From sequence record MH752840.1: a stretch of 64,000 nt of DNA; one strand, written 5' to 3'. The position numbers and the translations under genes are program-made. The notes under the pieces were generated by a model that worked only from the letters and a program-made list of their open reading frames with translations, was not told the DNA's origin and did no database searches. The DNA is from Escherichia phage vB_EcoM-Pr121LW. Positions 49,977 to 63,103 of this stretch are shown here, piece after piece (positions within the stretch are counted from its first letter, which is position 1; every line of letters begins with the position of its first letter).

Positions 49977-50261
49977 ATGGTAGTAGAACCAACAAAAACA
50001 TTTACATCCATGACTATTCCTGTTATTATGCAGGTGGAGTGTGTTCAGGTATCTCAAGTGTGGCCTGGCACCAAAATCCCAACAGGGCCTGATTTCTTTC
50101 AGGTTGGGAAAGTGTACAATGTCTGGAAGGCACCAGATTGTTACCCTTTCATTAAAGATGACCGTGGGATGCTGTGGTACCTTGGAAATGACTTGACACT
50201 GCACCTTGGGAATACTATTATTGCAGTATTCAGACTTAACAAGAAGGAGACCGATCAATGA
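49977..50261 (+). CDS. small protein, paralog family member
   Basis: ATG 49977 with RBS aagagga; shares FxxGKxY ... KDDxGxxWY motif with neighbours. Confidence 0.4.
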   Translation: MVVEPTKTFTSMTIPVIMQVECVQVSQVWPGTKIPTGPDFFQVGKVYNVWKAPDCYPFIKDDRGMLWYLGNDLTLHLGNTIIAVFRLNKKETDQ

Positions 50262-50485
50262 CGACTTTGGTTAAAGCTACCTTTGTAGAAGAAAAGATGA
50301 CAGACCTGTCATTCTTTAAAGAAGGAAAGACCTACGAGGTTTATTACGATAAAGCTCGTGCAAACAAAATGATTAAAGACGAGGAAGGGGTTGCCTGGTA
50401 TATCTCTCACCTGGCAAACGGTGAGTATCATATCTACGGGACCACTTTGCTTGCCAAGTTTGTAGTTGTTGAAGAGGACCTATGA
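50258..50485 (+). CDS. small protein, paralog family member
   Basis: FFKEGKTYEVYY ... IKDEEGVAWYI. Confidence 0.4.
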   Translation: MTTLVKATFVEEKMTDLSFFKEGKTYEVYYDKARANKMIKDEEGVAWYISHLANGEYHIYGTTLLAKFVVVEEDL

Positions 50486-50676
50486 AAGCAAAGTATCTTG
50501 CTGAAGGTATGAATAGGTATTTTACCCTTGGTGAAGAATATTGGCCCTTTACAAACAACGGCGATGTCTACGTGAAAGATAATTTCGGCACGCCGTGGTT
50601 TCTGCACTCTAATGGGCTGGGATACTCTATTTACTGCGGTGCAGTGAACAACACAACTCTTGCAGAGTTCGTTTAG
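50482..50676 (+). CDS. small protein, paralog family member
   Basis: FTLGEEYWPF ... VKDNFGTPWFL. Confidence 0.4.
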   Translation: MKAKYLAEGMNRYFTLGEEYWPFTNNGDVYVKDNFGTPWFLHSNGLGYSIYCGAVNNTTLAEFV

Positions 50677-50686
50677 AGGAGGTAGG

Positions 50687-51058
50687 ATGCTAGTAAAAGG
50701 TACCCACACAGTCAAACAACGTATTGAAGTTGAGATTGATGACTGTGAGCTGAAGCATATTTTACGGTCATGCTCCAACGTTTTGCTCCTTAGTATTCTT
50801 CAGGAGCGAGCGGAGAACGAGTTCTTAAATGCATTGGCAGGCCGTCCAGGTGACTTTTGTGTGCGTAAGCGTGGTGACAACAAGTCATGGTTGTGGGAAA
50901 TCGATGCCGACTGGGATTACCACAAAAATGAGGGCATAGATGAGCCTATTCGTGAACTGACGGACAAAGAGATTCAGATGTACAATGAAGTTTGTCATTG
51001 GGCAACACGCCAACAAATTTACCTAGACCCTGTGTGGCTGATTGAAAATAGCCATTGA
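50687..51058 (+). CDS. hypothetical protein
   Basis: ATG 50687 with RBS gaggagg; track start 50660 overlaps upstream gene. Confidence 0.4.
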   Translation: MLVKGTHTVKQRIEVEIDDCELKHILRSCSNVLLLSILQERAENEFLNALAGRPGDFCVRKRGDNKSWLWEIDADWDYHKNEGIDEPIRELTDKEIQMYNEVCHWATRQQIYLDPVWLIENSH

Positions 51059-51134
51059 CAAGAAGTAAGATTAGATATAAGATGCTTCACACAAACAAAG
51101 CGTTGATTTTTAAATAACTAAGGAGACTGCCAAG

Positions 51135-51389
51135 ATGAAAATTACTTTGAAGCCAGAATGCGTTGCAAATGACCGAGCTTTTAAAGATTGCACAGTCGGT
51201 GCAATCTATGAAGCAGAGTTTTGTGAGAACCCTCTGGTAAAAGCCCTTCTGGAAGAAGGGGCCCCTTTATCACAAGAAGAGATTGATGAGCTGGAAAACT
51301 CAGCACAGTGCCTTACCTTTAAAGATGATGAAGGAGACTCTGTCTGGTGCACTGTTAATGAGGTAGTTTTTGTAAAACCTGAACATTAA
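51135..51389 (+). CDS. small protein, paralog family member
   Basis: AFKDCTVGAIYEAEF ... FKDDEGDSVWCT; paralog of 51453 ORF. Confidence 0.4.
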   Translation: MKITLKPECVANDRAFKDCTVGAIYEAEFCENPLVKALLEEGAPLSQEEIDELENSAQCLTFKDDEGDSVWCTVNEVVFVKPEH

Positions 51390-51392
51390 TAC

Positions 51393-51430
51393 TTGACAAC
51401 AGTGATAGGGCCTAATATAATGGCCCTATC
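51393..51430 (+). promoter_or_regulatory. consensus sigma70 promoter (TTGACA-17-TATAAT) embedded in 9-bp perfect inverted repeat
   Basis: -35 51393-51398, -10 51416-51421; palindrome gatagggcc (51404-51412) / ggccctatc (51422-51430) centred on the -10. Confidence 0.6.
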
Positions 51431-51452
51431 AAAACGAAAGGGGACCACAGCA

Positions 51453-51725
51453 ATGACCAAACAATATCAACGAATTAAAGCCAAGGTTAAGCCAGACTAT
51501 CTGGAGAAAGACTCTGCTTTTCGGGACTGCACAGCCGACAAAGTTTACACAGGGGCCGTCCTGTTGAACGATGAACTTGAAGTAGATATTCTGGGTAAAG
51601 AGGCCACTATTAAGGACGACCAAGGCGATTATGTTTGCTGCACCACACGTGAGCTAGAAATCTTAGAATACTTCGGTGAAATCTTCACCTCTCTTGATGA
51701 TTACTTAGATGATGAGGAAGCGTGA
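51453..51725 (+). CDS. small protein, paralog family member
   Basis: ATG 51453 with RBS aaagggga; AFRDCTADKVYTGAV ... IKDDQGDYVCCT. Confidence 0.4.
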   Translation: MTKQYQRIKAKVKPDYLEKDSAFRDCTADKVYTGAVLLNDELEVDILGKEATIKDDQGDYVCCTTRELEILEYFGEIFTSLDDYLDDEEA

Positions 51726-52114
51726 TGAAAAATATTTGGGATATCAATATCTTTGAAGCCTCTAAGCTTGATGGTGCTGATGGAGTGATTATGGTATCTG
51801 ATGGCAAGGCAACACTAACTTCCGGAGATATCATCTATGCCTTGGACGAGCTGGCGCTTCTGAAATCTACCGGTAACACTCTAGAGGAGCGTCTTCAAGG
51901 CTTCGCCTTCAAAGAAGGTACAAATACAGCCATGATGTGCACCACACGGACAGTTCAGATGGGTAACGGTGTCTATATGATTATTGCTGTGTGTCCTAAA
52001 TTCAGCAACGTCAACAAAGATGATGCTGACGCGGTGAACGATGTGGTTGTTCTCTTCGTGGGTGACGCTATGGCAGATCTGATGAATGCAGGGGAAGCAG
52101 CAAATGAAGACTGA
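51725..52114 (+). CDS. hypothetical protein
   Basis: ATG 51725 overlapping upstream stop (GTGATG). Confidence 0.4.
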   Translation: MKNIWDINIFEASKLDGADGVIMVSDGKATLTSGDIIYALDELALLKSTGNTLEERLQGFAFKEGTNTAMMCTTRTVQMGNGVYMIIAVCPKFSNVNKDDADAVNDVVVLFVGDAMADLMNAGEAANED

Positions 52115-52406
52115 AAACATCACCCCAGCAGGGTTCTTAAAAGTATACCGTGAACTGCTGTATACTACAGAGGACAGTGTTCTAGAGTATCCAGAATATC
52201 TCTTGCTGTATAAGTATCTGCAGGAGGCTGGTGAAAATCTGCCAGTTAGTGCAGAAGGCGGTCCGAACTGGGTATACAGCGCATGGAGAAAGGTTGACAT
52301 TATCCCAGACCCAGGCAAAGATATGGTAGTTTGGCAGCTTATCAACAACATCGGGATTCCAATCTTTGATGAAGCTGTTAAAATCTATTTTGAACTTGAC
52401 GATTAA
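52104..52406 (+). CDS. hypothetical protein
   Basis: ATG 52104; track start 52086 overlaps upstream gene. Confidence 0.4.
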   Translation: MKTENITPAGFLKVYRELLYTTEDSVLEYPEYLLLYKYLQEAGENLPVSAEGGPNWVYSAWRKVDIIPDPGKDMVVWQLINNIGIPIFDEAVKIYFELDD

Positions 52407-52423
52407 TATCAGGAGACCTTAAG

Positions 52424-52669
52424 ATGACTGAAGTAGTTGCTCGCGCAGGACAGAAAGTACGTTGTGTTGAAGTAGGTTTTGGTGGCAAAGGGTGTCAAAA
52501 CTTGACTCAAGGTAAGGAATACGCTGTTATCTCTGGTGGTGGCGACGAAAGTATTGTGTTCGAGGGCCACATCCTGGATGCTGAAAACTTTGAAATCTTT
52601 GACGACGATGGGGATCCGATCACCTGCCTGCTGGACGGGAATTGGGGAACTTTCGAAGTGATTGGCTAA
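52424..52669 (+). CDS. small protein, paralog family member
   Basis: LTQGKEYAVIS ... FDDDGDPITCLL; RBS aggagacc. Confidence 0.4.
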   Translation: MTEVVARAGQKVRCVEVGFGGKGCQNLTQGKEYAVISGGGDESIVFEGHILDAENFEIFDDDGDPITCLLDGNWGTFEVIG

Positions 52670-52752
52670 CAAATACCTATTGTAATTTACAGAAGGGGAT
52701 GCTAAAATAGTGTCTCCTTCTATGTTGTTCAAATAAAATCGGAGATTCCATA

Positions 52753-53118
52753 ATGGAACAAATGAACGATCAAGAGTCGGTTGCGATGAACGAGCAAGAA
52801 CAACCTCAAGAATTTTTCTTAGGGTTAAGTAAAGATCAAGTGTCTCTTTTGCTAGTGCTTTCTTCTTTCATGGGAAGACTTCAGGAGCTCACACAACAAC
52901 CGGAGGCTGAACAATTATTTCAGGCTCTGCGTGAAGAAGAAAAATATCGTCGTTTGGACTATGCCTTAGGTTGGGTAGCTCAACAACGAGATATGCTAAT
53001 GGCCCTCTCTGGGACCACAAGTTTTGCAATGGGCCTATTGGCTCAAGTTCAGGACAAATTAATTCAAGCAGGGTTTGCACACACGGCAAACACTAACGAA
53101 GAACAAGGAGACAAATAA
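52753..53118 (+). CDS. hypothetical protein
   Basis: 121-aa ORF, RBS cggaga, immediately upstream of SSB. Confidence 0.4.
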   Translation: MEQMNDQESVAMNEQEQPQEFFLGLSKDQVSLLLVLSSFMGRLQELTQQPEAEQLFQALREEEKYRRLDYALGWVAQQRDMLMALSGTTSFAMGLLAQVQDKLIQAGFAHTANTNEEQGDK

Positions 53119-54344
53119 TGAGCGTTATTCAACAATTTGCTAACCCGATGAATCCGCGTGAAACTGTTTTACTGGCTCACGGTATGATCAAGCGTGTTAG
53201 CATCAAACCTATTAAAGGAGCTGATCCTGCAACAGGTATTAAAACCACCGTGTGGCAAGGTAAGAAAATTGAATCCAGCCACACCATCTCTTTACTGATT
53301 TCTGAACTGGATTCCTCTGATAACCTACTTCAAGGCGGTGAAGAAGTCTGGATCAGCATGGGTGATAAGCTGCTTAAACCTGGCCATCAAGACTCTGTCT
53401 CTGTTAAGATTGATGACAAGTGGGAAACCGTAACGCCAGGATGGATCGTAAATATTCCTTTGAAGGCAAACGAGCATAACGGTAAGACCTATTACAAAGG
53501 CTCACTGGCTAAGATGGTCAAGCTGGGTGCAGGAGAGGCTCCAGCAGCGACTCAGCAGCAAAAACAGCAACAAGGTGCACAATCACAAGGCCAGAAGCAG
53601 AAACCTCAGCAGAATGCCAATCAGGACGTTTTACGCATCTATGGCGATGTGACTCAGATTGTTGGCAACGTGGTTACTGTTAATGACCACAAGATCGGCG
53701 AAGGTGCTATGGTTGTCACGGATGAGCAGCTTAAAGACCTGGTGGTAGGTGGTCGTGTTGCAGCCATTGTTGACAAAGACACCGGAAACATTATCAGTGG
53801 TTTCAAAGCCTATCCACCTAAGGCAGAGAACGGCACCCAAGGTTCTGGTGGCAAGCGTAAATCCTCTTACGACCCTATTGGTGTGGAGACTGGGCATAGC
53901 ATCAATGCGTTGCAAATCATCCTGGATCGCGGGTTTAAGGTAGACGACCCACTAGGTGTGGCTAAAGCACTGCACGTAGTCACCATTGAGCTTAAGAAAG
54001 AGTATGCTCAAGCCACCAACCGAACTGAAGATGAAGTAGGTGCCAGTGTCGGTAATGCGGTGTTGAACGCTTGTCGCCGTATTGACAAGAAAACGAAAGT
54101 TGATGATTTTGCAGCGGCAATTACTGCAGAAGCAAAAGATGTGTTGACTAATCTGGCTGAGCCGTTGTACGATTGGATCAAGAACGGTGCTGGGTCAACT
54201 GACCATCAAGAACCTCAGGCTGCCAAACAGGAAGCAGCTCCACAGCAAAACACTGTAGACGCTCCTCCTGTAAATGATGGGGAAGACGACCCGATGGATC
54301 AGAATCCAGCACAGTACGCCTTTGATGATGACATCCCCTTCTAA
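53118..54344 (+). CDS. ssb: single-stranded DNA-binding protein with acidic C-terminal tail
   Basis: C-terminus ends YAFDDDIPF, matching the DDDIPF partner-binding tail of bacterial SSB; Gln-rich linker; replication-module context. Confidence 0.6.
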   Translation: MSVIQQFANPMNPRETVLLAHGMIKRVSIKPIKGADPATGIKTTVWQGKKIESSHTISLLISELDSSDNLLQGGEEVWISMGDKLLKPGHQDSVSVKIDDKWETVTPGWIVNIPLKANEHNGKTYYKGSLAKMVKLGAGEAPAATQQQKQQQGAQSQGQKQKPQQNANQDVLRIYGDVTQIVGNVVTVNDHKIGEGAMVVTDEQLKDLVVGGRVAAIVDKDTGNIISGFKAYPPKAENGTQGSGGKRKSSYDPIGVETGHSINALQIILDRGFKVDDPLGVAKALHVVTIELKKEYAQATNRTEDEVGASVGNAVLNACRRIDKKTKVDDFAAAITAEAKDVLTNLAEPLYDWIKNGAGSTDHQEPQAAKQEAAPQQNTVDAPPVNDGEDDPMDQNPAQYAFDDDIPF

Positions 54345-54359
54345 CATCTAGTTAACATA

Positions 54360-54389
54360 GCCCTGCCCGAAAGGGTGGGGCATTTTTGT
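54360..54389 (+). terminator. rho-independent terminator
   Basis: gccctgcccgaaagggtggggc hairpin (same as 44214) followed by atttttgt. Confidence 0.7.
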
Positions 54390-54406
54390 ATAAGGAGATC
54401 TGAAAA

Positions 54407-54823
54407 ATGACATTAGAAGATATCATTGTTAAACCTGAGAACTATGACCAATACAACCTGTCAACTCAATCTGTAGACCTTGGATGCGCCACAGTCAGTG
54501 CGTGGCTGGTTAACGGAAAAGAGCTGGACAAGTGCTTAGAAGCTCACATGTCTGTTAACAAGTTTCTGGATGAAAATACTCACTGGCTTGAGGGTGCTGG
54601 AGTATATGCTTCATGGTTGGAGAGCATGGGCTTTGACTATCAATCTGATGAAGGGTGGTGGAGCTATCTAGCTATCTGTCCAGAAACACTGCAATGCTTC
54701 ATGAAATATTCTGAAGATTTGGAGTACCGGGCGGTGGTTGATAGTGCTATTGCCCGTTATAGCCGTAAACCTTTTTCCCACGACATTAAAACTGTGGAAG
54801 AGTTTGTTGAAGTTTTCTGTTGA
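54407..54823 (+). CDS. hypothetical protein
   Basis: 138-aa ORF, RBS aaggagatc after terminator. Confidence 0.4.
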   Translation: MTLEDIIVKPENYDQYNLSTQSVDLGCATVSAWLVNGKELDKCLEAHMSVNKFLDENTHWLEGAGVYASWLESMGFDYQSDEGWWSYLAICPETLQCFMKYSEDLEYRAVVDSAIARYSRKPFSHDIKTVEEFVEVFC

Positions 54824-54918
54824 CACAGGTTGAAAGGTGTGCAATTATAACTTCATAGACTGGAGGACGTGATGAACGAAGAAAACTGGGATGTATAACT
54901 AACAGGAGGCCACTGCCC

Positions 54919-55116
54919 ATGATTTATCGAATCCGTGTAAGAGAAGATGCACCAGGCTGTTACTTTGACTGGCGTGGGTGGTGGTTTCTCCACCCAATGG
55001 ATGGACTCACAGATAGAATGCTGGATGCTGCCTTTTATACAGATACCGACATAGAATATAATCTCTATCTGAAAGACGGTATAGATAACGGCCTGTTTGA
55101 AGCAATTCCTGTGTAA
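54919..55116 (+). CDS. hypothetical protein
   Basis: 65-aa ORF, RBS aggagg. Confidence 0.35.
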   Translation: MIYRIRVREDAPGCYFDWRGWWFLHPMDGLTDRMLDAAFYTDTDIEYNLYLKDGIDNGLFEAIPV

Positions 55117-55184
55117 GAGACTGTGATAGCTATGTTTTATGATCTTCCTGTAGCACCACCACCTGTTGAACCCGGAGAACTAAG

Positions 55185-55610
55185 ATGATCTATGAAATGC
55201 CAAAACTGATTCATGACGATGCCCAAAACGCTCACACCATTATTATGGGTAAGCGCATGGATATTATTTGTCATAAAGATTTCTGGGAAGGGAGTTACTT
55301 CACGGAATATTTTGGTAAACTGGATAATGGTCTGCTGATCCAGTTCTACACCGATGCGGAAAACAATATCTGCTGGGAGTTCGAAACTGAAGATATCCAT
55401 AAACTTTTCACCTTCCTAGGTATTAAGGTTGAGGCCAAGTTCGAAGAAGGTGAGTGCGACGATTGTGGATTCTACGAGGTAACAGATTTCTATCTCCCAA
55501 GTGGTGAGAACCTTTACTATGAAAGCCACTTCGGCAACTCAAATATGCCACAAGGTTGGGATGAGTTTTTTGAAATTGTGGAAGAGGAGCTGGCATACCG
55601 TGATTATTGA
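55185..55610 (+). CDS. hypothetical protein
   Basis: 141-aa ORF, RBS ggagaa. Confidence 0.4.
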   Translation: MIYEMPKLIHDDAQNAHTIIMGKRMDIICHKDFWEGSYFTEYFGKLDNGLLIQFYTDAENNICWEFETEDIHKLFTFLGIKVEAKFEEGECDDCGFYEVTDFYLPSGENLYYESHFGNSNMPQGWDEFFEIVEEELAYRDY

Positions 55611-56058
55611 TACTGTAGAGGGAGATTTAATCTCCCTTTTTAAGAGCGGCGCTGGTCACCTGATCCACGGTTGTAACTGCTTCCACACAATGGGCAAGGG
55701 GATAGCAAAACAGATTGCCCGTGAGTTCCCTCAAGCATTGGCAGCTGACAAAGAGACCAGACATGGTTGCCTAAGTAAACTGGGTGCGTTCTCCCGATGG
55801 GAGCACTTATCTCCGAGAGGTATTGTCTACGGAATCAATCTGTATACTCAGTTCTACCCAGGACCTAATGCTGAATATTTCTCAATCCTGAAAGGCTTTG
55901 AGCTAGTCAATGAGGTATTCAGTGGATCGACTTTACCATTCTACATCCCTAAGATCGGGTGCGGCATAGGCGGTTTGAAGTGGGAGCACGTAGAGGACGT
56001 TATTAACCTTGCCACTTTTGATATGAATATTATCGTGGTGGAGTACAAAAAGTGTTGA
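55600..56058 (+). CDS. macro-domain protein (Macro_2-like, ADP-ribose binding/processing)
   Basis: GTG 55600 with RBS gaggag 12 nt upstream; HGCNCFHTMGKGIAKQI and IPKIGCGIGGL match macro-domain phosphate-binding loops. Confidence 0.6.
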   Translation: MIIDTVEGDLISLFKSGAGHLIHGCNCFHTMGKGIAKQIAREFPQALAADKETRHGCLSKLGAFSRWEHLSPRGIVYGINLYTQFYPGPNAEYFSILKGFELVNEVFSGSTLPFYIPKIGCGIGGLKWEHVEDVINLATFDMNIIVVEYKKC

Positions 56059-56083
56059 CAGCGGGTTTTTGAGATGGTATAGT
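56055..56083 (+). promoter_or_regulatory. sigma70-type promoter (TTGACA-17-TATAGT)
   Basis: Hexamers with 17-nt spacer. Confidence 0.5.
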
Positions 56084-56111
56084 CACCACAACGATTGAGA
56101 GAGGGAGCACT

Positions 56112-56282
56112 ATGGAGACTAAAATCTTAATTCTGGCTGTGATAGATACAACCGAAGGGGCTGTGTTCGAATCTGCAGGAGGGTATTTCTACCTACCCTA
56201 CGGAAAAAGAACTGCTGAACCAGGTAAAGATTCAATCATCAAAGTGTTCCCGTGTGCTTTCTGGCTGGATATTTTGGTATAA
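56112..56282 (+). CDS. small hypothetical protein (56 aa)
   Basis: Hand-translated; follows promoter 56055-56083 and RBS gagagggag. Confidence 0.3.
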   Translation: METKILILAVIDTTEGAVFESAGGYFYLPYGKRTAEPGKDSIIKVFPCAFWLDILV

Positions 56283-56308
56283 GATTGCAGAGGATTTGGG
56301 AGAGAATT

Positions 56309-56503
56309 ATGAGAAACAAGAGAGAGCTTTACTCTGGCGAGTGGATAAACGATCAACAGGTTGGAGAGGTAACCTGCTTCCGGTGTTTTACTCGGTACAA
56401 TCTTAAAACTGCACCAAAAAGTGTTCCAAAGACTGATGGTTATTACATAAAAGAGCCTCATTGCCCGAAATGTAAATGCCGAGTATACTGGAGTAACCTG
56501 TAA
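56309..56503 (+). CDS. small zinc-ribbon protein
   Basis: ATG 56309 with RBS ggagaga; CFRC ... CPKCKC cysteine pairs. Confidence 0.4.
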   Translation: MRNKRELYSGEWINDQQVGEVTCFRCFTRYNLKTAPKSVPKTDGYYIKEPHCPKCKCRVYWSNL

Positions 56504-56507
56504 AAGA

Positions 56508-56535
56508 TTGACATCTGAAAACTGCGGTGTATAAT
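56508..56535 (+). promoter_or_regulatory. sigma70-type promoter (TTGACA-16-TATAAT)
   Basis: Consensus hexamers with 16-nt spacer. Confidence 0.6.
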
Positions 56536-56566
56536 ACAAACATAAACTAGCAGAGAGGGATATATT

Positions 56567-56758
56567 ATGGTAATTTTTAATCGAGACGGTATCATAGTCA
56601 GGCAGCACCCATTCCTTGAATACTATCAAATTGAGCAATGGTGCTACGGAGATTGCAGTCACTCCTATGGGCAAAGTTGGGGATATCGCACAGTTTTTGA
56701 ATCAACAGACCTTGACAAAGTAAGACAGAAAGTTTTAGAACTTATTAACAACAAGTGA
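56567..56758 (+). CDS. hypothetical protein
   Basis: 63-aa ORF behind strong promoter 56508-56535 and RBS gagaggga. Confidence 0.4.
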   Translation: MVIFNRDGIIVRQHPFLEYYQIEQWCYGDCSHSYGQSWGYRTVFESTDLDKVRQKVLELINNK

Positions 56759-56768
56759 GTATCGTGCC

Positions 56769-57101
56769 ATGGTAACATTGGAAAGACGTAAAGCTATCGC
56801 CGCCACACTGGCAGACATCTTTTGGGATTGCAACTTAAAAGATACCCGAAATTGTGGCGCATCTGTAGATGTATTATTCCCACGGCCTACCATTGTTGCA
56901 ATGGGAAACCTGTCAAACGTAGTGTACGGAGCATGGGACAAAGAAGGTGGATTCTATATCTGGCAACCTGACTACGGAGCCTGGAAAGAGGTAAGGGGTG
57001 CGGTTGACTTTGGGCCTACAAGTGCTAAGATGGATGGCTGGGAAATTTATGTTGGAAACGACATGAAGCTGAAAGGCGAGATTGTTTACTGGTTGCCTTA
57101 A
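56769..57101 (+). CDS. hypothetical protein
   Basis: 110-aa ORF. Confidence 0.4.
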   Translation: MVTLERRKAIAATLADIFWDCNLKDTRNCGASVDVLFPRPTIVAMGNLSNVVYGAWDKEGGFYIWQPDYGAWKEVRGAVDFGPTSAKMDGWEIYVGNDMKLKGEIVYWLP

Positions 57102-57121
57102 GAACGTGCAGGAGATAAAGT

Positions 57122-57367
57122 ATGAACAAAGGGTGGACATTCGTAGACGGCGTTAAAAACATGCCTCTTGGAAAGTATATTGTAGCCATGGCAGATGAGA
57201 ATGGCAAGGTGGATTTCGGAGTTTGCGAGGTTGTTCTTGCAGGATCTGGCGACTATGTGCACAAAACTGGGATAATTAACGGTCATTTCTACTTTGATTA
57301 CAACCCTGTTGTGGCGTATATGGCTATGCCAGAGTTTAAGTTCCCAAAGGAGGGTGCTGATGTTTAA
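57122..57367 (+). CDS. hypothetical protein
   Basis: 81-aa ORF, RBS aggagataaag. Confidence 0.4.
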   Translation: MNKGWTFVDGVKNMPLGKYIVAMADENGKVDFGVCEVVLAGSGDYVHKTGIINGHFYFDYNPVVAYMAMPEFKFPKEGADV

Positions 57368-57557
57368 GCTTAAATCCGCATGGAACATTGCTGTAGGTGA
57401 CGAGATCCGTATTCCCGGTGGAGAAACTATTATGAAGATATCTCGTATCGAGTATGAAGGTGACCGTGTATTCCACATCTTTGCAGAAGATGGTCGAGAA
57501 ATTTATATACAGGCAGGCTCTCACATCTATATCCGTAAGAAAGGGGACGACAAATGA
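57360..57557 (+). CDS. hypothetical protein
   Basis: ATG 57360 with RBS aaggaggg, overlapping upstream stop. Confidence 0.4.
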   Translation: MFKLKSAWNIAVGDEIRIPGGETIMKISRIEYEGDRVFHIFAEDGREIYIQAGSHIYIRKKGDDK

Positions 57558-57886
57558 CAGAGATCATCGTTTCAACTGCAGGGTATGTATTCCTGACAAT
57601 CATTGCGCTGGCTATTCTGGTGGCGGTGTATGGATTTGTTATCCTGCCTATTCTTGAGACATTTAGTTTGTGTCGGTGTTGGAGAAAAGCTTACGGACCA
57701 CAACCGTGGAAAGACTGGTTCCATTTGGTGCGTATAGCGTTCTCTTATGCCTATGACCACTCTAGCAGTGCATGCGTAACCGGGTACCATGCCTACAACT
57801 GGAACTGGGAAGGGTTGGGGAGATGGACTGTTACAAAAACTATACCCTTACGGTTGTACAAAGGAAAGAACAAACTGGGCACCTGA
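57554..57886 (+). CDS. membrane protein
   Basis: Hydrophobic segment YVFLTIIALAILVAVYGFVILPIL; last gene before non-coding region. Confidence 0.45.
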   Translation: MTEIIVSTAGYVFLTIIALAILVAVYGFVILPILETFSLCRCWRKAYGPQPWKDWFHLVRIAFSYAYDHSSSACVTGYHAYNWNWEGLGRWTVTKTIPLRLYKGKNKLGT

Positions 57887-58901
57887 TATTTTAAGTTATC
57901 AGGTTCCCAGAGATCAGGAGGATTTCTAAAATGGATTTCCTCCTTTTGATATTTCACCGGACCAGATATTTTAAAATTCTTAGAAAATCAGAAAATGGAT
58001 CGAAAACTAAAATGGATTTTTTCAACACAGGCGCGGAAAATTGTGCCAATCTATCTAGCCGTTTGCACCATATTCGAAATCACCGTTCCAGATTTCCCAC
58101 ACATACACACCTCCCCGCCATACCTTTCTCCACTCACTCTTAGTGATTTATGACGGAAAACCCATCACTATCAGTGAGTTGCGGTACAATTTTTCCAGTA
58201 CTCGATCTACTTTTCATTTCATGGTTTGGATTTTCTGAAAATTTTTCTCGATAAATTTCTCAGTACTCGATCTGTTTTTCGTTTTCTGAATCGGATTTTC
58301 TGGAAATCGTTCCGGCTCTCGACCTGAAATTTTTGGGGACGAAATCGATTTTTCGTTTTCAGAAATGGATTTTTAAAATTTCTATATGGGAATATTTTAT
58401 GGGGTACTGTTTTATAGGAAATTGTTACGGATGGTAATTAGCATGCTAATTAAATTTATTAAATGCGAGGAGTTCTCATTTAGAATTTTGAATGATAATC
58501 ATTCTCGTTTGCAGAATAACGGGCAGGCCCGGTGATTGTCTCCCGGCCCCTACTGCCCCGGCTTGCTATTATAGTAACACACAGGACAAAGAAAGCAAGA
58601 AGTTTTTGCATAAATTTTTAGACGATAATGATAATCGTTCTCATTTCATGCAGCGCCCATCCCCGGTGGTTGTCTCCCCCGTCACCGGTGCCTGCCGTCC
58701 TTTCGATAGGTATATTGTGCCACCTGGCGGGGCCGCTGTCAACACTTTTCAAAAAATTTTTCTAACCTGATGCGCTAACCGCTGCAACCTGGCGGGGCCA
58801 GCCTGGCAGTACCTAACTGACCAGGTAGGAGAGAATGAAGGCTTGTAAACCTGGTGGGCCTATGCTATAGGATAGGTAACAATTGAAGAGGAGGTACAAA
58901 A
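57887..58901. other. about 1-kb non-coding region with several families of short direct repeats
   Basis: Four aaaatggat copies, two cagtactcgatct copies, two tttcgttttc copies, two gataatcNttctcNttt ... cccggtgNttgtctccc units (58493-58565, 58623-58700), two cctggcggggcc copies; no ORF with credible coding character. Confidence 0.6.
57916..57955 (+). terminator. hairpin aggagga / tcctcct with T-rich tail (possible terminator)
   Basis: 7-bp stem with 15-nt loop followed by tttgatattt; just after last replication-module gene. Confidence 0.35.
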
Positions 58902-59078
58902 ATGAAAGGTAATATAATCCCCCTGGAAAATGTAGCTATTAATGACGCTGAGGCTATCGCCCTGGTTGAAAAGGCTATGGCGGGAGCGTTGGAACATAAA
59001 GAAGAGTACGAAAAAATGATGGTTAACCTGGCAGGGGCGGCGGCTGGAGAATTCTGCCCAAAAAATAATTTTACATAA
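58902..59078 (+). CDS. small early protein (58 aa)
   Basis: Hand-translated MKGNIIPLENVAIND...; RBS gaggagg 6 nt upstream; below track cutoff. Confidence 0.4.
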   Translation: MKGNIIPLENVAINDAEAIALVEKAMAGALEHKEEYEKMMVNLAGAAAGEFCPKNNFT

Positions 59079-59081
59079 TGG

Positions 59082-59110
59082 TTGACAGCTCGGATAGTTC
59101 TTGTTATTCT
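59082..59110 (+). promoter_or_regulatory. early promoter (TTGACA-17-TATTCT)
   Basis: Hexamers with 17-nt spacer. Confidence 0.5.
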
Positions 59111-59162
59111 TATCCTCGCAAGGTGAACAACACCACACTAATTAACAAAGAGGATAAAAATC

Positions 59163-59360
59163 ATGAACGCATACGGAATCAAAGTACGTCGCAACACTCG
59201 CCAGGTGGTCACCGACCAAGTGATTTGCCGGGTGGATGTAACCATCAACAACGGGCAAGGCCTTTATAAATTTCGTCGCGGTCATAGCTATACCCTGCAA
59301 CAGCTTAACCGTTGCGCCCTGACAAAAGGTCAGATCAACCACTGGTTTAATAAAAAATAA
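59163..59360 (+). CDS. small basic early protein
   Basis: 65 aa; own promoter 59082-59110 and RBS agaggataaaaatc. Confidence 0.45.
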   Translation: MNAYGIKVRRNTRQVVTDQVICRVDVTINNGQGLYKFRRGHSYTLQQLNRCALTKGQINHWFNKK

Positions 59361-59363
59361 ATA

Positions 59364-59392
59364 TTGACATATAGTCTGACACAAAATATACT
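59364..59392 (+). promoter_or_regulatory. early promoter (TTGACA-17-TATACT)
   Basis: Hexamers with 17-nt spacer, A-rich upstream. Confidence 0.6.
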
Positions 59393-59424
59393 GAAATCAC
59401 AAAAGACACTAAGAGGATAAAATC

Positions 59425-59823
59425 ATGAAAACCACAACCTTTAATTTTGATAATGCCGACTTCTCTTTTTCTGATGTCAAGAACTGCCGCCGTGATCGTG
59501 GATTTTACAAGGCTTATAATCTGGTGGGCCTGGACGATGACAATAATTTGCACGAAGTAGCTGAGATCCGGTATTATGCCGCCTCCAGCGGTAACACTCA
59601 TTATTGCGTCTTTTGGATGCACGACAGCAAGAACAACAAGTACGGTTATACTGGTGGCAAGGCGAGCGGTCACGGTTATGATAAGGCCAATGCAGCACTT
59701 GAAAGCGCGTTAAATGCTATGGGGATCACTGCCAACGGCTGGATCTATGAAGATGAGTTTTTGTCAGCACTTGCTGCCCACCTGGGGTATAAAAAGCACA
59801 TTGTGACATGCGCCCACGAATAA
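59425..59823 (+). CDS. early protein, unknown function
   Basis: 132 aa; own promoter 59364-59392 and RBS. Confidence 0.5.
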   Translation: MKTTTFNFDNADFSFSDVKNCRRDRGFYKAYNLVGLDDDNNLHEVAEIRYYAASSGNTHYCVFWMHDSKNNKYGYTGGKASGHGYDKANAALESALNAMGITANGWIYEDEFLSALAAHLGYKKHIVTCAHE

Positions 59824-59838
59824 AAAAAAAAAAAATTA

Positions 59839-59866
59839 TTGACACGCTGCAAAATTAAAGTAAACT
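59839..59866 (+). promoter_or_regulatory. early promoter (TTGACA-16-TAAACT) with upstream A-tract
   Basis: Hexamers with 16-nt spacer; a14 run at 59822-59835. Confidence 0.55.
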
Positions 59867-59876
59867 AGACACAAAA

Positions 59877-59895
59877 GGCGGGAATGTTTCCCGCC
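59877..59895 (+). promoter_or_regulatory. 5-prime UTR stem-loop
   Basis: ggcgggaatgtttcccgcc, 7-bp GC stem about 10 nt after the -10. Confidence 0.5.
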
Positions 59896-59914
59896 AACAC
59901 AAAGGAAAAAGATC

Positions 59915-60310
59915 ATGAATAAGAACGTACGCCGCATCATGAACGAACTGGCAAACGATGAAAAAATTATTGATATGCATTTGGTCAACATTTGCCGCCG
60001 TTGTGTAACATATAACAACCGCGCCGCAAAAGCGCGTGAGATGAACGCAAAAGGCACCTTAAAGCCCTTTCAGGTGGTTGTAAAATCTATAGCTAATGCA
60101 GCAGGCCAGGCGCATGACCACAACAACGAGAGCACTAATATTGATCCGTCTTACGTAATGAAACGGATCCGGACTTGCAAGAATAAAGAGCAGGTGTATA
60201 ACGTCATAGATTGGCTGGACTCCATGGGCGATGTGGTTTATAATAGGTTTTCTGCAGCTATCGAGATCCAGCTTGACAGACTGGACGGGAAAGTACTGAA
60301 AACTTACTGA
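59915..60310 (+). CDS. early protein, unknown function
   Basis: 131 aa; own promoter 59839-59866 and 5-prime UTR hairpin. Confidence 0.5.
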   Translation: MNKNVRRIMNELANDEKIIDMHLVNICRRCVTYNNRAAKAREMNAKGTLKPFQVVVKSIANAAGQAHDHNNESTNIDPSYVMKRIRTCKNKEQVYNVIDWLDSMGDVVYNRFSAAIEIQLDRLDGKVLKTY

Positions 60311-60311
60311 G

Positions 60312-60358
60312 TTTATTTTTAGATGGCCTTGACTCCAGGGCCATCAATAAAGTAAACT
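60312..60358 (+). repeat. 47-bp intergenic cassette, copy 1
   Basis: tttatttttagatggccttgactccagggccatcaataaagtaaact; T-run, inverted repeat gatggcc/ggccatc, TTGACT-18-TAAACT promoter-like hexamers. Confidence 0.7.
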
Positions 60359-60389
60359 AACCACAGTTGAGCGGAAAGGGGGCTTAAAG

Positions 60390-60509
60390 ATGAGTACTAC
60401 ACGCCAGCACACAAAGGTAACTATTATCGTTTGCATCATTGGTTACATCCTGGCGCAAATGTTGATGGGTAGCGCCAACGGTATCGCAAAATTTTTCTTA
60501 AACTTTTAA
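60390..60509 (+). CDS. small hydrophobic peptide (39 aa)
   Basis: Hand-translated MSTTRQHTKVTIIVCIIGYILAQMLMGSANGIAKFFLNF; RBS aaaggggg; downstream of repeat-cassette promoter. Confidence 0.3.
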   Translation: MSTTRQHTKVTIIVCIIGYILAQMLMGSANGIAKFFLNF

Positions 60510-60537
60510 TTGACAAGCTAACTTAGATCAGTATACT
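60510..60537 (+). promoter_or_regulatory. early promoter (TTGACA-16-TATACT)
   Basis: Hexamers with 16-nt spacer. Confidence 0.6.
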
Positions 60538-60587
60538 AAACACATAAACGGGAAAACTTCCCAGAACACACAAAAGGAGAAAACACC

Positions 60588-60929
60588 ATGACTACTATGA
60601 CCGCCGCAGAAAAAGCTATGCAGATCGCTGCGCTGAAAAAACAGATCGCAGACCTTGAGAACAAGATCGATAACTTTGAAATCGACGAGGACAAGTACGA
60701 CGAAAACTATGATGAATGGTTAGACGAGATCTACGGCGAAATTATGATCGGAAACATTTCTTTTCTTCCGTCGCGTATCCTCAAGGAGCTAGATCCTATC
60801 GCTTACCGCTGCGGATTTAGCGACTACATCGACAGCCTGGATATTGAGGACGATGAAGAATACCAGGAATTGCAGACAGAGCTTGAAGAAGTGAAAGAAG
60901 AGCTTTCAGAGCTGGAAGAAAACGAGTAA
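60588..60929 (+). CDS. acidic early protein
   Basis: 113 aa, strongly acidic C-terminal half; own promoter 60510-60537. Confidence 0.5.
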   Translation: MTTMTAAEKAMQIAALKKQIADLENKIDNFEIDEDKYDENYDEWLDEIYGEIMIGNISFLPSRILKELDPIAYRCGFSDYIDSLDIEDDEEYQELQTELEEVKEELSELEENE

Positions 60930-60930
60930 A

Positions 60931-60977
60931 TTTATTTTTAGATGGCCTTGACTCCAGGGCCATCAATAAAGTAAACT
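60931..60977 (+). repeat. 47-bp intergenic cassette, copy 2 (identical to 60312-60358)
   Basis: Exact repeat read from sequence; a degenerate third copy lies at about 61264-61315. Confidence 0.7.
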
Positions 60978-61018
60978 TTACACTGTTAACACTGAACTAA
61001 TACAGAGGAGTTAAAACC

Positions 61019-61264
61019 ATGGCCGCACTAATTACCAAATATTACGCCCCTACCAACACCAAAAGCGCCCGTATCATGGTAAAAGGCTTCGGACGTAAAA
61101 AGGTTTACACCTGGGATTATTCCCTAGACATGGAAGACAACTACACCAACGCGATGACCGATTTTATTAACGAGCTGAATACGCGGATCTTAACAAATTA
61201 TAAAATTACCGACATTGCTTATATAGGTGAAGGCGGGATCTGTTTTGTAGGCATTGTGAAATAG
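61019..61264 (+). CDS. early protein, unknown function
   Basis: 81 aa; RBS agaggag; downstream of second repeat cassette. Confidence 0.5.
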   Translation: MAALITKYYAPTNTKSARIMVKGFGRKKVYTWDYSLDMEDNYTNAMTDFINELNTRILTNYKITDIAYIGEGGICFVGIVK

Positions 61265-61339
61265 TTATTTTTTCGGTGGTCCTTGCTGCAGGGCCATCTA
61301 TAAAGATAATTTACTAACACCATGAAAGGAGAAAGTAAC

Positions 61340-61693
61340 ATGATCAGCGGGGCTAGTTTTATTATTGGCGCTATTGCTACGGCTTTAATTGTAAACAAGA
61401 TCCAGGATAAAAAGGAAAGAGGAAGTACCGCCCTTGCAGAATATCCATTTTGGACATTCAACGATAACGAAGATTATATTGTAAAGTATAAAAATAAAGA
61501 AGGTTACCAAGTAACACCGCGACCGATCCCTGCTTACAAGATGCAGGAAACACTATACCGCCTGGAGGCGGGGGGCGCAAAAATTGTAGACTTTTGGGGA
61601 TACGATCACACAGATCAGGAAGCTATAAAGCGACGTATCAGGGCTATTCAGGCCAATATTGAAGTTAGCAAGGGGGGAATATATGAAGATTAA
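61340..61693 (+). CDS. membrane-anchored early protein
   Basis: ATG 61340 with RBS aaaggagaaag; N-terminal hydrophobic ISGASFIIGAIATALIV. Confidence 0.45.
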   Translation: MISGASFIIGAIATALIVNKIQDKKERGSTALAEYPFWTFNDNEDYIVKYKNKEGYQVTPRPIPAYKMQETLYRLEAGGAKIVDFWGYDHTDQEAIKRRIRAIQANIEVSKGGIYED

Positions 61694-61880
61694 TTTTGAG
61701 AAAATTGTAAAGCGATCTCATGATTCCGAAGAGCTGCCGGAACGCCGCCAGCGTAACAATAAACTGAATAAGCCAAAAAGATTTGGGAAGATCTGGCGGA
61801 ATCATTATGATCGTAAATTGCCGGGCCTCCTTTTGGAACGTGAACGGCAGGCGGAACGATACCGCCACAAAGGCAACTAA
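61683..61880 (+). CDS. small basic protein
   Basis: ATG 61683 overlapping upstream gene; Arg/Lys-rich; terminator follows. Confidence 0.4.
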   Translation: MKINFEKIVKRSHDSEELPERRQRNNKLNKPKRFGKIWRNHYDRKLPGLLLERERQAERYRHKGN

Positions 61881-61888
61881 CAACCAAC

Positions 61889-61917
61889 GCCCCGCCATAG
61901 TGCGGGGCTTTTTATTT
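61889..61917 (+). terminator. rho-independent terminator
   Basis: gccccgccatagtgcggggc hairpin followed by tttttattt. Confidence 0.7.
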
Positions 61918-62039
61918 CTATCCTACGAATAGCGCCCCTGGTTGGCCCTGTAAGCGCCAAAAAGCCCCCCCACCTATGCAATCGCCCCCTTTAACCTGAA
62001 AACATCGCCCAGGGCCGTTTTATGGCGTTAAAAATATCA

Positions 62040-62067
62040 TTGACATCGTCAACAGGTTAGCTATACT
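62040..62067 (+). promoter_or_regulatory. early promoter (TTGACA-16-TATACT)
   Basis: Hexamers with 16-nt spacer. Confidence 0.6.
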
Positions 62068-62099
62068 AACCACATCAAAGAGAGAAAGGAGTAAACGCC

Positions 62100-62360
62100 A
62101 TGCGTAAATTAAAAAATTTTGATAAAGTTGATGTTATCCTGAATAATTTCTACTACTGCAACAACAAGGCTATTTGGTGGCGTGATAGTTCCACCGATAA
62201 AGTCAAGGCGCGCTTTCTTCAGGGGCATTGGCAAGGCCGCCCAGTGATTAAAATCATGGGGCAATTGGTAGCGTTTAAAAATTGCCGCCGTGTTGATGAC
62301 GTTGAGGAGATTTTAAACATTTTGCGCCACAATAATTTAAAAAATAGTGTTGACAAGTAA
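62100..62360 (+). CDS. early protein, unknown function
   Basis: 86 aa; own promoter 62040-62067 and RBS aaaggag. Confidence 0.5.
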   Translation: MRKLKNFDKVDVILNNFYYCNNKAIWWRDSSTDKVKARFLQGHWQGRPVIKIMGQLVAFKNCRRVDDVEEILNILRHNNLKNSVDK

Positions 62361-62377
62361 ATCTCAATAAGTATAAT
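62350..62377 (+). promoter_or_regulatory. early promoter (TTGACA-16-TATAAT)
   Basis: Consensus hexamers; -35 overlaps stop codon of upstream gene. Confidence 0.65.
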
Positions 62378-62387
62378 TAAACACACA

Positions 62388-62406
62388 GGCGGGAAAACTT
62401 CCCGCC
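62388..62406 (+). promoter_or_regulatory. 5-prime UTR stem-loop
   Basis: ggcgggaaaacttcccgcc, near-identical to hairpin at 59877. Confidence 0.5.
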
Positions 62407-62434
62407 ACCAACAAAGAAAACAGGAGAAAATATC

Positions 62435-63058: not shown

Positions 63059-63066
63059 ATAAAGTG

Positions 63067-63094
63067 TTGCAATAACCTAAAAACCTGCTATATT
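63067..63094 (+). promoter_or_regulatory. early promoter (TTGCAA-16-TATATT)
   Basis: Hexamers with 16-nt spacer. Confidence 0.5.
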
Positions 63095-63103
63095 AAAACT
63101 CAA

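What the first reader, a model, noticed from the sequence alone, without database searches (positions are those of the whole stretch)
55600..56058. Phage-encoded macro-domain protein, candidate anti-defence or ADP-ribosylation reversal factor
The ORF, starting at GTG 55600 with a good RBS, carries two macro-domain phosphate-binding loops (HGCNCFHTMGKGIAKQI and IPKIGCGIGGL). Macro domains bind or hydrolyse ADP-ribose derivatives, and host ADP-ribosylating toxins and NAD-consuming defences are known phage-restriction mechanisms, so this protein could reverse ADP-ribosyl marks or degrade a signalling nucleotide. That role is inference; the domain call is from motifs only.
Basis: partly seen in the sequence, partly recalled or inferred. 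Interest (0 to 1): 0.7.

Follow-up and report, generated by a model that had tools for sequence, protein, structure and literature searches.

The report
Phage macrodomain, T4 Tk.4/AdfM type
This is a real 152-residue macrodomain gene of an rV5-like E. coli phage, a clear relative of phage T4 Tk.4 (AdfM), which was recently shown to protect T4 from the DNA-ADP-ribosylating DarTG2 defence; it is a sound but largely anticipated find.

Summary
The ORF at 55600-56058 (+, GTG start, 152 aa) is real and under purifying selection. Public Vequintavirus records annotate the same CDS, variously as "macro domain protein", "phosphatase" or "O-acetyl-ADP-ribose deacetylase". It passes Pfam Macro. It folds confidently (pLDDT 96.8) into a macro fold closest to TARG1, Poa1p, DarG, BT1257 and SCO6735.

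It belongs to a large, mostly stand-alone family found in 2782 of 50,697 phage records. That family includes T4 Tk.4 (39% identity, E 4e-40, full length). A 69%-identical Krischvirus protein sits in the syntenic tk.4 slot. A 2025 preprint named Tk.4 AdfM after its deletion sensitised T4 to DarTG2.

The most likely function is early-expressed removal of ADP-ribose from thymidine in phage ssDNA. This is inferred by homology and was not tested in this phage.

One point may be new. This family never has the catalytic Lys of DarG/TARG1. It has an invariant Gln (Q84, 231/231), as in Streptomyces SCO6735, a Gln-type thymidine-ADPr-DNA hydrolase. The chimallivirus "AdfM" (PhiKZ gp104) is a different, Lys-type, DarG-like lineage.

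Verdict: new member of a known kind, with modest interest.

The parts
55600..56058 (+). Macrodomain CDS (152 aa, GTG start, TGA stop); Tk.4/AdfM-type stand-alone macrodomain
   Evidence: the same CDS is annotated in BP9, O157 typing phage 4, JES2013 and JohannBauhin
55583..55589 (+). Shine-Dalgarno-like AGAGGAG, 10 nt upstream of the GTG start. It lies inside the 3' end of the upstream ORF, and the two ORFs overlap by 11 nt.
   Evidence: read directly from the sequence; ORF coordinates
55666..55716 (+). Loop 1, residues 23-39 (HGCNCFHTMGKGIAKQI): substrate-binding/catalytic loop. It carries H23, N26 (codon 55675-55677) and K33, which align with SCO6735 H24, N27 and K34; N26 also aligns with the conserved Asn of the DarG loop.
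   Evidence: N26 is 233/233 and H23 is 230/233 in the family
55849..55851 (+). Codon of Q84 in the NLYTQF motif. It occupies the position of the catalytic Lys of DarG (K80) and TARG1 (K84), and of Gln85 of SCO6735.
   Evidence: profile-to-PDB alignments, MAFFT alignment, hhalign to PhiKZ gp104; Q in 231/231 family members
55945..55977 (+). Loop 2, residues 116-126 (IPKIGCGIGGL): diphosphate-binding loop. G124 sits where TARG1 has its catalytic Asp (GCGLD).
54820..54848 (+). Sigma-70-like promoter (TTGACA-17-AATTAT with TG, 10/12). It follows a terminator-like hairpin at 54360-54381 and is the likely start of the three-gene unit that ends with the macrodomain.
   Evidence: sequence; consensus match only, function not shown
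54919..55116 (+). Upstream small ORF (65 aa, PHROG 9903, unknown function), probably co-transcribed
55185..55610 (+). Upstream ORF (141 aa, PHROG 8157, unknown function, no Pfam hit). It overlaps the macrodomain start by 11 nt. It is not found next to the homologues in T4 or GEC-3S.
56055..56083 (+). Next sigma-70-like promoter (TTGACA-17-TATAGT with TG, 11/12), overlapping the macrodomain stop codon. It marks the downstream boundary of the unit.

Best explanation
The gene encodes a stand-alone, catalytically active macrodomain of the phage Tk.4/AdfM family, within the TARG1/DarG/SCO6735 ('ALC1-like') class. The proposed sequence of events is as follows. The gene is transcribed early by host RNA polymerase from sigma-70-type promoters. 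The enzyme binds ADP-ribosyl-thymidine on single-stranded phage DNA written by a host DarT2 toxin. It then hydrolyses the base-ribose bond, releasing ADP-ribose and restoring replicable DNA. In effect it would act as an orphan DarG2-like antitoxin that lacks the DarT-binding domain. Catalysis probably follows the SCO6735 route, with Gln84 positioning substrate and water, rather than the Lys-dependent route of DarG/TARG1. Shown here: the gene, the fold, family membership and the active-site composition. Inferred: the substrate, the timing of expression and the anti-DarTG2 phenotype.
For: Fold and family:
- Pfam Macro is above its cutoff.
- The AF2 model has pLDDT 96.8.
- The best structural matches are TARG1, Poa1p, Taq and Mtb DarG macrodomains, BT1257 and SCO6735.
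- The PADLOC DarG model matches at E 1.1e-13, and NCBIfam DarG matches over the macro part only.

Link to T4 Tk.4:
- BLASTP gives 39% identity, E 4e-40, residues 1-150.
- The Krischvirus GEC-3S protein in the tk.4 slot, between vs and tk, is 69% identical.
- Deleting tk.4 sensitised T4 to DarTG2, and tk.4 was the single HIDEN-SEQ hit on a DarTG2 host. It was named AdfM.

Gln-type chemistry is compatible with this substrate:
- SCO6735 has Gln85 at the Lys position and cleaves thymidine-linked ADPr on DNA. Q85A abolishes that activity, and SCO6735 protects against DarT.
- This protein also keeps the equivalents of SCO6735 H24, N27 and K34.
- Q84, N26, N80 and H23 are essentially invariant in 235 family members.

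Context:
- Family members are fused to NADAR, the guanine-ADPr-DNA hydrolase domain of DarG1/AdfN (NADAR role).
- Distant members sit inside phage replication modules, next to DnaB, primase and UDG genes.
- Here the gene lies about 6 kb downstream of the DNA polymerase on the same strand.

Correlative control:
- T5 is DarTG2-sensitive and has no Tk.4-type or ALC1-like macrodomain in its whole genome.

Related enzyme:
- A macrodomain Adf that removes ADPr from DarT2-modified DNA has been shown biochemically for PhiKZ gp104.
Against: - No experiment exists for any Vequintavirus protein.
- The T4 evidence is genetic only and comes from a preprint. Removal of ADPr from DNA by a Tk.4-type enzyme has not been shown biochemically.
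- The protein is only 22-28% identical to DarG, SCO6735 and PhiKZ gp104. The biochemically characterised phage AdfM is a different, Lys-type lineage.
- It lacks SCO6735's extended Lys-rich mobile loop. By residue count its net charge is about -1, so a strongly electropositive DNA groove is not evident.
- The closest folds (TARG1, Poa1p) also act on protein-ADPr, O-acyl-ADPr or ADPr-1''-phosphate.
- Some family members are fused to DUF4326, a predicted ribose-phosphate phosphatase. This fits small-molecule processing equally well.
Confidence: 0.68

Rival explanations
1. The enzyme processes soluble ADP-ribose derivatives rather than DNA adducts. Candidates are ADP-ribose-1''-phosphate (the 'phosphatase'/A1pp annotation), O-acetyl-ADP-ribose, and ADPr-derived immune signals such as Thoeris-type cyclic or conjugated ADPR. 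It would detoxify them or quench the signal.
For: Poa1p (ADPr-1''-P phosphatase) and TARG1/OARD1 (O-acyl-ADPr deacylase) are among the best structural matches. The HxCN motif is shared with Poa1p. Public records label the gene 'phosphatase' or 'O-acetyl-ADP-ribose deacetylase'. Family members are fused to DUF4326, a predicted ribose-phosphate phosphatase. [quoted passage not shown]
Against: The only genetic phenotype known for the family is anti-DarTG2, a DNA-modifying system. NADAR, the commonest fusion partner, has since been shown to act on guanine-ADPr DNA. Gene neighbourhoods are replication modules. The database labels are domain-name transfers, not tests.
Confidence: 0.14
2. The protein reverses ADP-ribosylation of proteins or RNA. 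The marks could be written by host ART toxins, for example mRNA-targeting or protein-targeting ARTs, or by phage-encoded enzymes.
For: TARG1 and SCO6735 also de-modify protein substrates, so the macro fold is versatile.
Against: The TARG1 Lys/Asp dyad is absent: Q84 and G124 occupy those positions. No ART is annotated in the closest complete genome, JES2013. T4 genetics point to DarTG2.
Confidence: 0.08
3. The protein works with the phage's own Sir2-like protein. It would either clear the O-acetyl-ADP-ribose that Sir2 produces or reverse an ADP-ribosylation that Sir2 writes, like bacterial SirTM-macrodomain pairs.
For: JES2013 encodes a Sir2-like ORF78 beside a nucleotide pyrophosphohydrolase and an RNA ligase. 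These lie outside this window. Sirtuin-macrodomain partnerships are known in bacteria (established knowledge; the title and abstract of PMC11490716 appear).
Against: The two genes are about 50 kb apart and in different transcription blocks. Their distributions differ. Sir2 homologues occur in 1022 phage records, mostly T5-like and V5-like, while macrodomain homologues occur in 2782, dominated by T4-like phages. In the T4 region examined, the only Sir2-independent neighbours are vs and tk genes, and T4-like phages do not feature in the Sir2 hit list. T5 has Sir2 but no such macrodomain.
Confidence: 0.05
4. The protein is a non-catalytic ADP-ribose reader or sponge that binds ADPr or ADPr-derived molecules without hydrolysing them.
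For: The canonical catalytic Lys is missing.
Against: A Gln at this site supports catalysis in SCO6735. Strict invariance of Q84, N26, H23 and N80 across the family is typical of an active site. The T4 homologue neutralises an enzymatic toxin.
Confidence: 0.05

Closest known systems
Phage T4 Tk.4 = AdfM (anti-DarT factor macrodomain; bioRxiv 10.1101/2025.11.20.689424)
   Same: Both are stand-alone proteins of about 150 aa. They share 39% identity over the full length (E 4e-40) and the same signature: HGCNCFHTMG.G, NLYTQF.PGPN and P(K/R)IG.GIG. A 69%-identical intermediate sits in the tk.4 slot of Krischvirus GEC-3S.
   Different: The genomic context differs. Here the gene follows two unknown ORFs downstream of the DNA polymerase, whereas in T4 it lies between vs and tk. 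K33 here is Ser in T4. No phenotype data exist for the Vequintavirus protein.
Chimallivirus AdfM (PhiKZ gp104; Cell Rep 2026, PMC13309987)
   Same: Both are phage-encoded stand-alone macrodomains of the same broad class. PhiKZ gp104 has been shown to remove ADPr from DarT2-modified DNA.
   Different: Identity is only 23-24% (E 5e-6). gp104 is DarG-like: it has FPTK with the catalytic Lys and scores 133 bits on PADLOC DarG, against 49 bits here. It is also imported into the phage nucleus. The two are separate lineages that share a name.
Bacterial DarG2 antitoxin macrodomain (Thermus aquaticus, M. tuberculosis; PDB 5M31, 5M3E, 5M3I)
   Same: Same fold (TM about 0.75) and best PDB sequence match (profile E 3.7e-17). 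The Asn of loop 1 and the Gly-rich loop 2 are conserved.
   Different: There is no C-terminal DarT-binding domain and no adjacent darT gene. Gln replaces the catalytic Lys80. The NCBIfam equivalog scores 47 bits against a cutoff of 250.
Streptomyces coelicolor SCO6735 / Bacteroides BT1257 (PDB 5E3B, 2FG1)
   Same: Gln occupies the Lys position and is essential in SCO6735. The HxCN motif, the loop-1 Lys and the PRIGCG-type loop 2 are shared. SCO6735 cleaves thymidine-ADPr DNA and protects against DarT.
   Different: Identity is 24-27%. The phage family has a short YTQFxPGPN segment instead of the long Lys-containing mobile loop. SCO6735 and BT1257 are cellular, not viral.
Human TARG1/OARD1 (PDB 4J5R) and yeast Poa1p (PDB 6LFR)
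   Same: These are the top Foldseek hits (TM 0.78/0.85 and 0.73/0.68), and the domain size and topology match.
   Different: The TARG1 Lys84/Asp125 dyad is replaced by Gln84/Gly124. Their substrates are protein Glu-ADPr, OAADPr or ADPr-1''-P. Sequence identity is 22-26%.

Membership tests
Macro domain superfamily (Pfam PF01661) | Profile score above Pfam's gathering threshold | tested here: met
   28.3 bits against a cutoff of 22, E 1.9e-6
Macro domain superfamily (Pfam PF01661) | Three-layer alpha/beta/alpha macro fold | tested here: met
   AF2 pLDDT 96.8; 169 PDB matches with E<=0.001; all top 19 are macrodomains at probability 1.00
ALC1-like / TARG1-DarG class of macrodomains | Closest structures and sequences are TARG1, DarG, SCO6735, BT1257 and Poa1p rather than MacroD, PARG or viral Mac1 types | tested here: met
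   coronavirus and alphavirus macrodomains rank lower, at TM 0.58-0.69
Phage Tk.4 / AdfM (T4-type) family, PHROG 335 | Full-length homology to T4 Tk.4 | tested here: met
   39% identity, E 4e-40, residues 1-150; PHROG 335 at E 4.8e-59
Phage Tk.4 / AdfM (T4-type) family, PHROG 335 | Family signature residues H23, N26, N80, Y82, T83, Q84, P117 and G120 | tested here: met
   All are present. Each is at least 93% conserved in 235 members; Q84 is 231/231
Phage Tk.4 / AdfM (T4-type) family, PHROG 335 | Protects the phage against DarTG2 | not testable with these tools
   Reported for T4 only. Needs a knockout and plaque assay.
DarG2 antitoxin (NCBIfam NF048014 equivalog) | Score above the equivalog cutoff | tested here: not met
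   47.4 bits against 250; the match covers profile positions 3-139 of 338 only
DarG2 antitoxin (NCBIfam NF048014 equivalog) | C-terminal DarT-binding domain | tested here: not met
   The protein is 152 aa and the macrodomain fills it
DarG2 antitoxin (NCBIfam NF048014 equivalog) | Catalytic lysine (Taq K80) in the PTK motif | tested here: not met
   Gln84 aligns with K80
DarG2 antitoxin (NCBIfam NF048014 equivalog) | Adjacent darT toxin gene | tested here: not met
   The ten neighbours scanned have no Pfam hit and only unknown-function PHROGs. This was not a dedicated DarT profile search.
SCO6735-type (Gln-type) thymidine-ADPr-DNA hydrolases | Gln at the DarG/TARG1 Lys position, plus equivalents of H24, N27 and K34 | tested here: met
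   Q84, H23, N26 and K33 align in register. The functional roles come from PMC9411070.
SCO6735-type (Gln-type) thymidine-ADPr-DNA hydrolases | Extended Lys-containing mobile loop after the Gln (K89, K93) | tested here: not met
   The loop is 6-7 residues shorter, QFYPGPNA against QHGMKTGSKGAPV
TARG1 (terminal ADP-ribose glycohydrolase) | Lys84/Asp125 catalytic dyad | tested here: not met
   Q84 and G124 occupy these positions
Poa1p (ADP-ribose-1''-phosphate phosphatase) | Residues mutated in the deposited Poa1p structures (H23, S30, F152) | tested here: inconclusive
   The HxCN His aligns, Thr30 would correspond to Ser30, and Gly replaces F152. The middle of the protein does not align by sequence, and the numbering was inferred from chain positions.

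The most novel reading that the evidence does not exclude
The Tk.4-type phage macrodomains form a mechanistically distinct, Lys-less (invariant Gln) class of viral ADP-ribose erasers. Their substrate range may be wider than DarT2-modified thymidine. For example, they might also hydrolyse other nucleic-acid ADPr adducts or ADPr-derived immune signals. That breadth would explain why roughly 5% of sequenced phages keep one and why some are fused to NADAR and DUF4326. The two proteins currently called 'AdfM' would then be independent acquisitions with different chemistry.
Probability: 0.2. Interest if true: 0.55.

Novelty: new member of a known kind. Interest (0 to 1): 0.3.

Why it matters
If the inference holds, rV5-like (Vequintavirinae) phages carry a built-in counter to DarTG2. 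These phages are widely used in E. coli O157 typing and in phage-therapy cocktails. That would help predict host range on strains carrying DarTG systems, and it identifies a gene whose loss should sensitise the phage.

The observation that the Tk.4 family uses an invariant Gln where DarG/TARG1 use Lys links a very abundant phage family to the little-studied SCO6735 mechanism. It also suggests that phages acquired macrodomain anti-DarT factors at least twice. This is a refinement of a recently opened topic, not a new principle.

Tried and rejected
- **Longer ORF from GTG 55501 (185 aa).** Rejected, because homologues are 150-155 aa and align from residue 1.
- **Membership in DarG2 proper.** Rejected on score, domain architecture, the catalytic Lys and the absence of darT.
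- **Orthology with PhiKZ AdfM.** Rejected: 23% identity and a Lys-type site.
- **Functional clues from neighbours.** Ten flanking ORFs gave only unknown-function PHROGs and no Pfam hit. The overlapping upstream ORF does not accompany the homologues in T4 or GEC-3S.
- **A second ADPr eraser.** Ad hoc profile searches for NADAR, DUF4326 or another macrodomain found nothing in the window or in the whole JES2013 genome. The NADAR and DUF4326 profiles were built from only 2-3 sequences, so sensitivity is limited.
- **Coupling to the phage Sir2.** Considered and down-weighted, because the distributions differ and T5 has Sir2 without the macrodomain.
- **RNA and repeat features.** The Rfam gathering scan and the tRNA scan of the whole window, and the tandem-repeat scan of 50000-64000, found nothing.
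- **Literature.** A search for 'phage-encoded macrodomain' found no paper. No paper linking Vequintavirinae macrodomains to DarTG2 was found.

Full report
**Observation**

The + strand ORF 55600-56058 begins with GTG and encodes 152 residues. A Shine-Dalgarno-like AGAGGAG lies 10 nt upstream of the start.

The ORF overlaps the preceding 141-aa ORF by 11 nt. The in-frame extension to GTG 55501 is not supported, because homologues are 150-155 aa and align from residue 1.

The window is an rV5-like Escherichia phage (Vequintavirus). It is about 97.8% identical to JES2013 across 55000-57000 and collinear with JES2013 throughout. The same 459-nt CDS is annotated in public records. Its labels vary: 'macro domain protein', 'phosphatase', 'O-acetyl-ADP-ribose deacetylase' or 'hypothetical protein'. 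The JES2013 protein is identical apart from the initiator residue.

**Is it a macrodomain?**

Yes. The evidence is:
- Pfam Macro scores 28.3 bits against a gathering score of 22.
- PHROG 335 matches at E 4.8e-59.
- The PADLOC DarG model matches at E 1.1e-13.
- An AlphaFold2 model built on a 72-sequence alignment has mean pLDDT 96.8 and pTM 0.91.
- Foldseek against the PDB returns TARG1 (TM 0.78/0.85), Poa1p, the Thermus and Mycobacterium DarG macrodomains, BT1257 and SCO6735, all at probability 1.00. RNA-virus macrodomains rank further down.
- Against the 81%-identical orthologue of phage JohannBauhin, dN/dS is 0.12, so the gene is under purifying selection.

**Which macrodomain?**

tblastn finds homologues in 2782 of 50,697 phage records. 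These cover Vequintavirinae, T4-like Straboviridae, Felixounavirus, Pakpunavirus, Ackermannviridae and others. In T4-like phages the hit is gene tk.4.

Pairwise BLASTP to T4 Tk.4 gives 39% identity, E 4e-40, over the whole length. In the Krischvirus GEC-3S, the protein in the syntenic tk.4 slot between vs and tk is 69% identical to the window protein. That bridges the two groups and hints at horizontal exchange.

An exhaustive profile search finds 1377 clusters (at 50% identity) with E<=1e-30. Nearly all are stand-alone proteins of about 150-170 aa.

**What is known about that family**

A November 2025 preprint screened a T4 transposon library on a DarTG2-expressing host. The single significant hit was tk.4. 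A clean deletion sensitised T4 to DarTG2, and the gene was named adfM.

Independently, a 2026 paper named a chimallivirus macrodomain (PhiKZ gp104) AdfM. [quoted passage not shown]

The window protein is only 23-24% identical to gp104. gp104 scores 133 bits on the PADLOC DarG model, against 49 bits for the window protein and 36 bits for T4 Tk.4. The two 'AdfM' proteins are therefore different lineages of the same structural class.

**Active site**

Three kinds of alignment agree on the key position: profile-to-PDB, hhalign and a MAFFT alignment of references. In all of them Gln84, in the motif NLYTQF, occupies the position of the catalytic Lys of DarG (K80, motif FPTK) and TARG1 (K84). It also occupies the position of Gln85 of SCO6735 and the equivalent Gln of BT1257. 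TARG1's partner Asp (GCGLD) corresponds to Gly124 here.

Among 235 family members, position 84 is Gln in 231 of 231 non-gap cases. N26 is 233/233, N80 is 232/232 and H23 is 230/233.

SCO6735 has been shown to cleave thymidine-linked ADP-ribose from DNA and to protect Streptomyces against DarT. The Q85A mutant is inactive. H24, N27 and K34 were also examined by mutagenesis, and the window protein has H23, N26 and K33 in register. It lacks SCO6735's longer Lys-containing loop.

The family is therefore best described as a Gln-type member of the ALC1-like class. It fails the definition of DarG2 on four counts: an equivalog score of 47 against 250, no DarT-binding domain, no catalytic Lys, and no adjacent darT gene.

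**Context**

The gene lies in a long block of small same-strand ORFs of unknown function, about 6 kb downstream of the DNA polymerase and primase-helicase genes.

A terminator-like hairpin sits at 54360-54381. A sigma-70-like promoter at 54820-54848 precedes the three-gene unit made up of the ORFs at 54919, 55185 and 55600. Near-consensus promoters follow at 56055 and 56508. This pattern suggests early transcription by host polymerase, but that is not proven.

Two distant family members on metagenomic phage contigs sit directly beside DnaB-like helicase, Toprim primase, AAA_24 and UDG genes.

Of ten longer family members scanned, three are fused to NADAR, and two carry DUF4326, one of them together with NADAR. 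NADAR is the domain that removes ADP-ribose from guanine in DarT1-modified DNA. A 2022 survey had noted such fusions. That survey favoured soluble ADPr derivatives as the substrates.

As a correlative control, T5 is restricted by DarTG2. Its complete genome has no Tk.4-type or ALC1-like macrodomain, although it does encode Sir2.

The closest complete relative, JES2013, has exactly one macrodomain. It has no NADAR detectable with my small profile and no annotated ADP-ribosyltransferase.

**Most likely mechanism**

The protein is most likely an early-expressed, stand-alone Gln-type macrodomain. It would hydrolyse ADP-ribosyl-thymidine on single-stranded phage DNA written by host DarT2, restoring replication. 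That would make it an orphan antitoxin-like counter-defence.
- Shown: the gene, the fold, family membership and the active-site composition.
- Inferred: the substrate, the timing of expression and the phenotype.

I put this at about 0.68.

The rivals are:
- processing of soluble ADPr derivatives (0.14), supported by the Poa1p/TARG1 resemblance and the DUF4326 fusions;
- reversal of protein or RNA ADP-ribosylation (0.08);
- partnership with the phage Sir2-like protein (0.05), weakened by non-matching distributions and by T5;
- a non-catalytic reader (0.05), weakened by the invariant active-site residues.

**Novelty and verdict**

Both are already largely in the public domain. The gene is annotated as a macrodomain in several records, and the family's anti-DarTG2 role has been reported for T4.

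Two things are not, to my knowledge, stated in the papers I read. First, the T4-type AdfM family is uniformly Lys-less and SCO6735-like. Second, it is a separate lineage from the chimallivirus AdfM. That is a useful refinement, not a surprise.

I rate this a new member of a known kind, with interest 0.3.

Noticed in passing
window about 43010-43018, 47153-47163 and 54341-54355: Compared with JES2013, the window phage lacks three genes at otherwise collinear junctions. They are a methyltransferase (JES ORF217, annotated as a type III R-M methylation subunit in rV5_ev168), an HNH endonuclease between the DNA polymerase and the primase-helicase (ORF211), and an endonuclease VII (ORF198) just upstream of the macrodomain block. 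The two endonucleases look like mobile homing genes.
   Followed up: partly
public records MG065635-MG065690 (hits to window 55000-57000): Sixteen unannotated records named 'Campylobacter phage', with host given as C. jejuni, are 95-98% identical to this E. coli Vequintavirus. This probably reflects mislabelling or contamination in that submission batch.
   Followed up: no
JES2013 NC_022323 67145-68633 (outside the window): rV5-like phages encode a Sir2-like protein next to a nucleotide pyrophosphohydrolase and an RNA ligase. Sir2 homologues occur in 1022 phage records, mainly T5-like and V5-like. This is another NAD/ADPr-related module of unknown role in the same phage.
   Followed up: partly
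P0118, P0188, P0182, P0175 (family members): Tk.4-type macrodomains occur fused to NADAR and/or DUF4326 domains. These could be dual erasers of thymidine- and guanine-linked ADP-ribose.
   Followed up: partly
L011 6001-6498 and L012 6001-6522: Distant family members on metagenomic phage contigs lie inside replication modules. One overlaps the stop of a DnaB-like helicase gene and the other follows a Toprim primase gene. AAA_24 and UDG genes are nearby.
   Followed up: no
L006 3001-3456 (Krischvirus GEC-3S): The Tk.4 orthologue of this T4-like phage is 69% identical to the Vequintavirus protein but only 45% identical to T4 Tk.4. This suggests gene exchange between Krischvirus and Vequintavirus lineages.
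   Followed up: partly
window 56055-56083 and 56508-56535 (+): Near-perfect sigma-70 consensus promoters (11/12 and 12/12) punctuate the block of small ORFs. This is typical of a host-polymerase-transcribed early region. Their conservation was not checked.
   Followed up: no
window about 57900-58900: This stretch has only short, overlapping mechanical ORFs. Related records annotate little or nothing here: the BP9 annotation has a gap between its CDS at locus positions 7599-7778 and 8499-8675. No Rfam family or tandem repeat was found.
   Followed up: no
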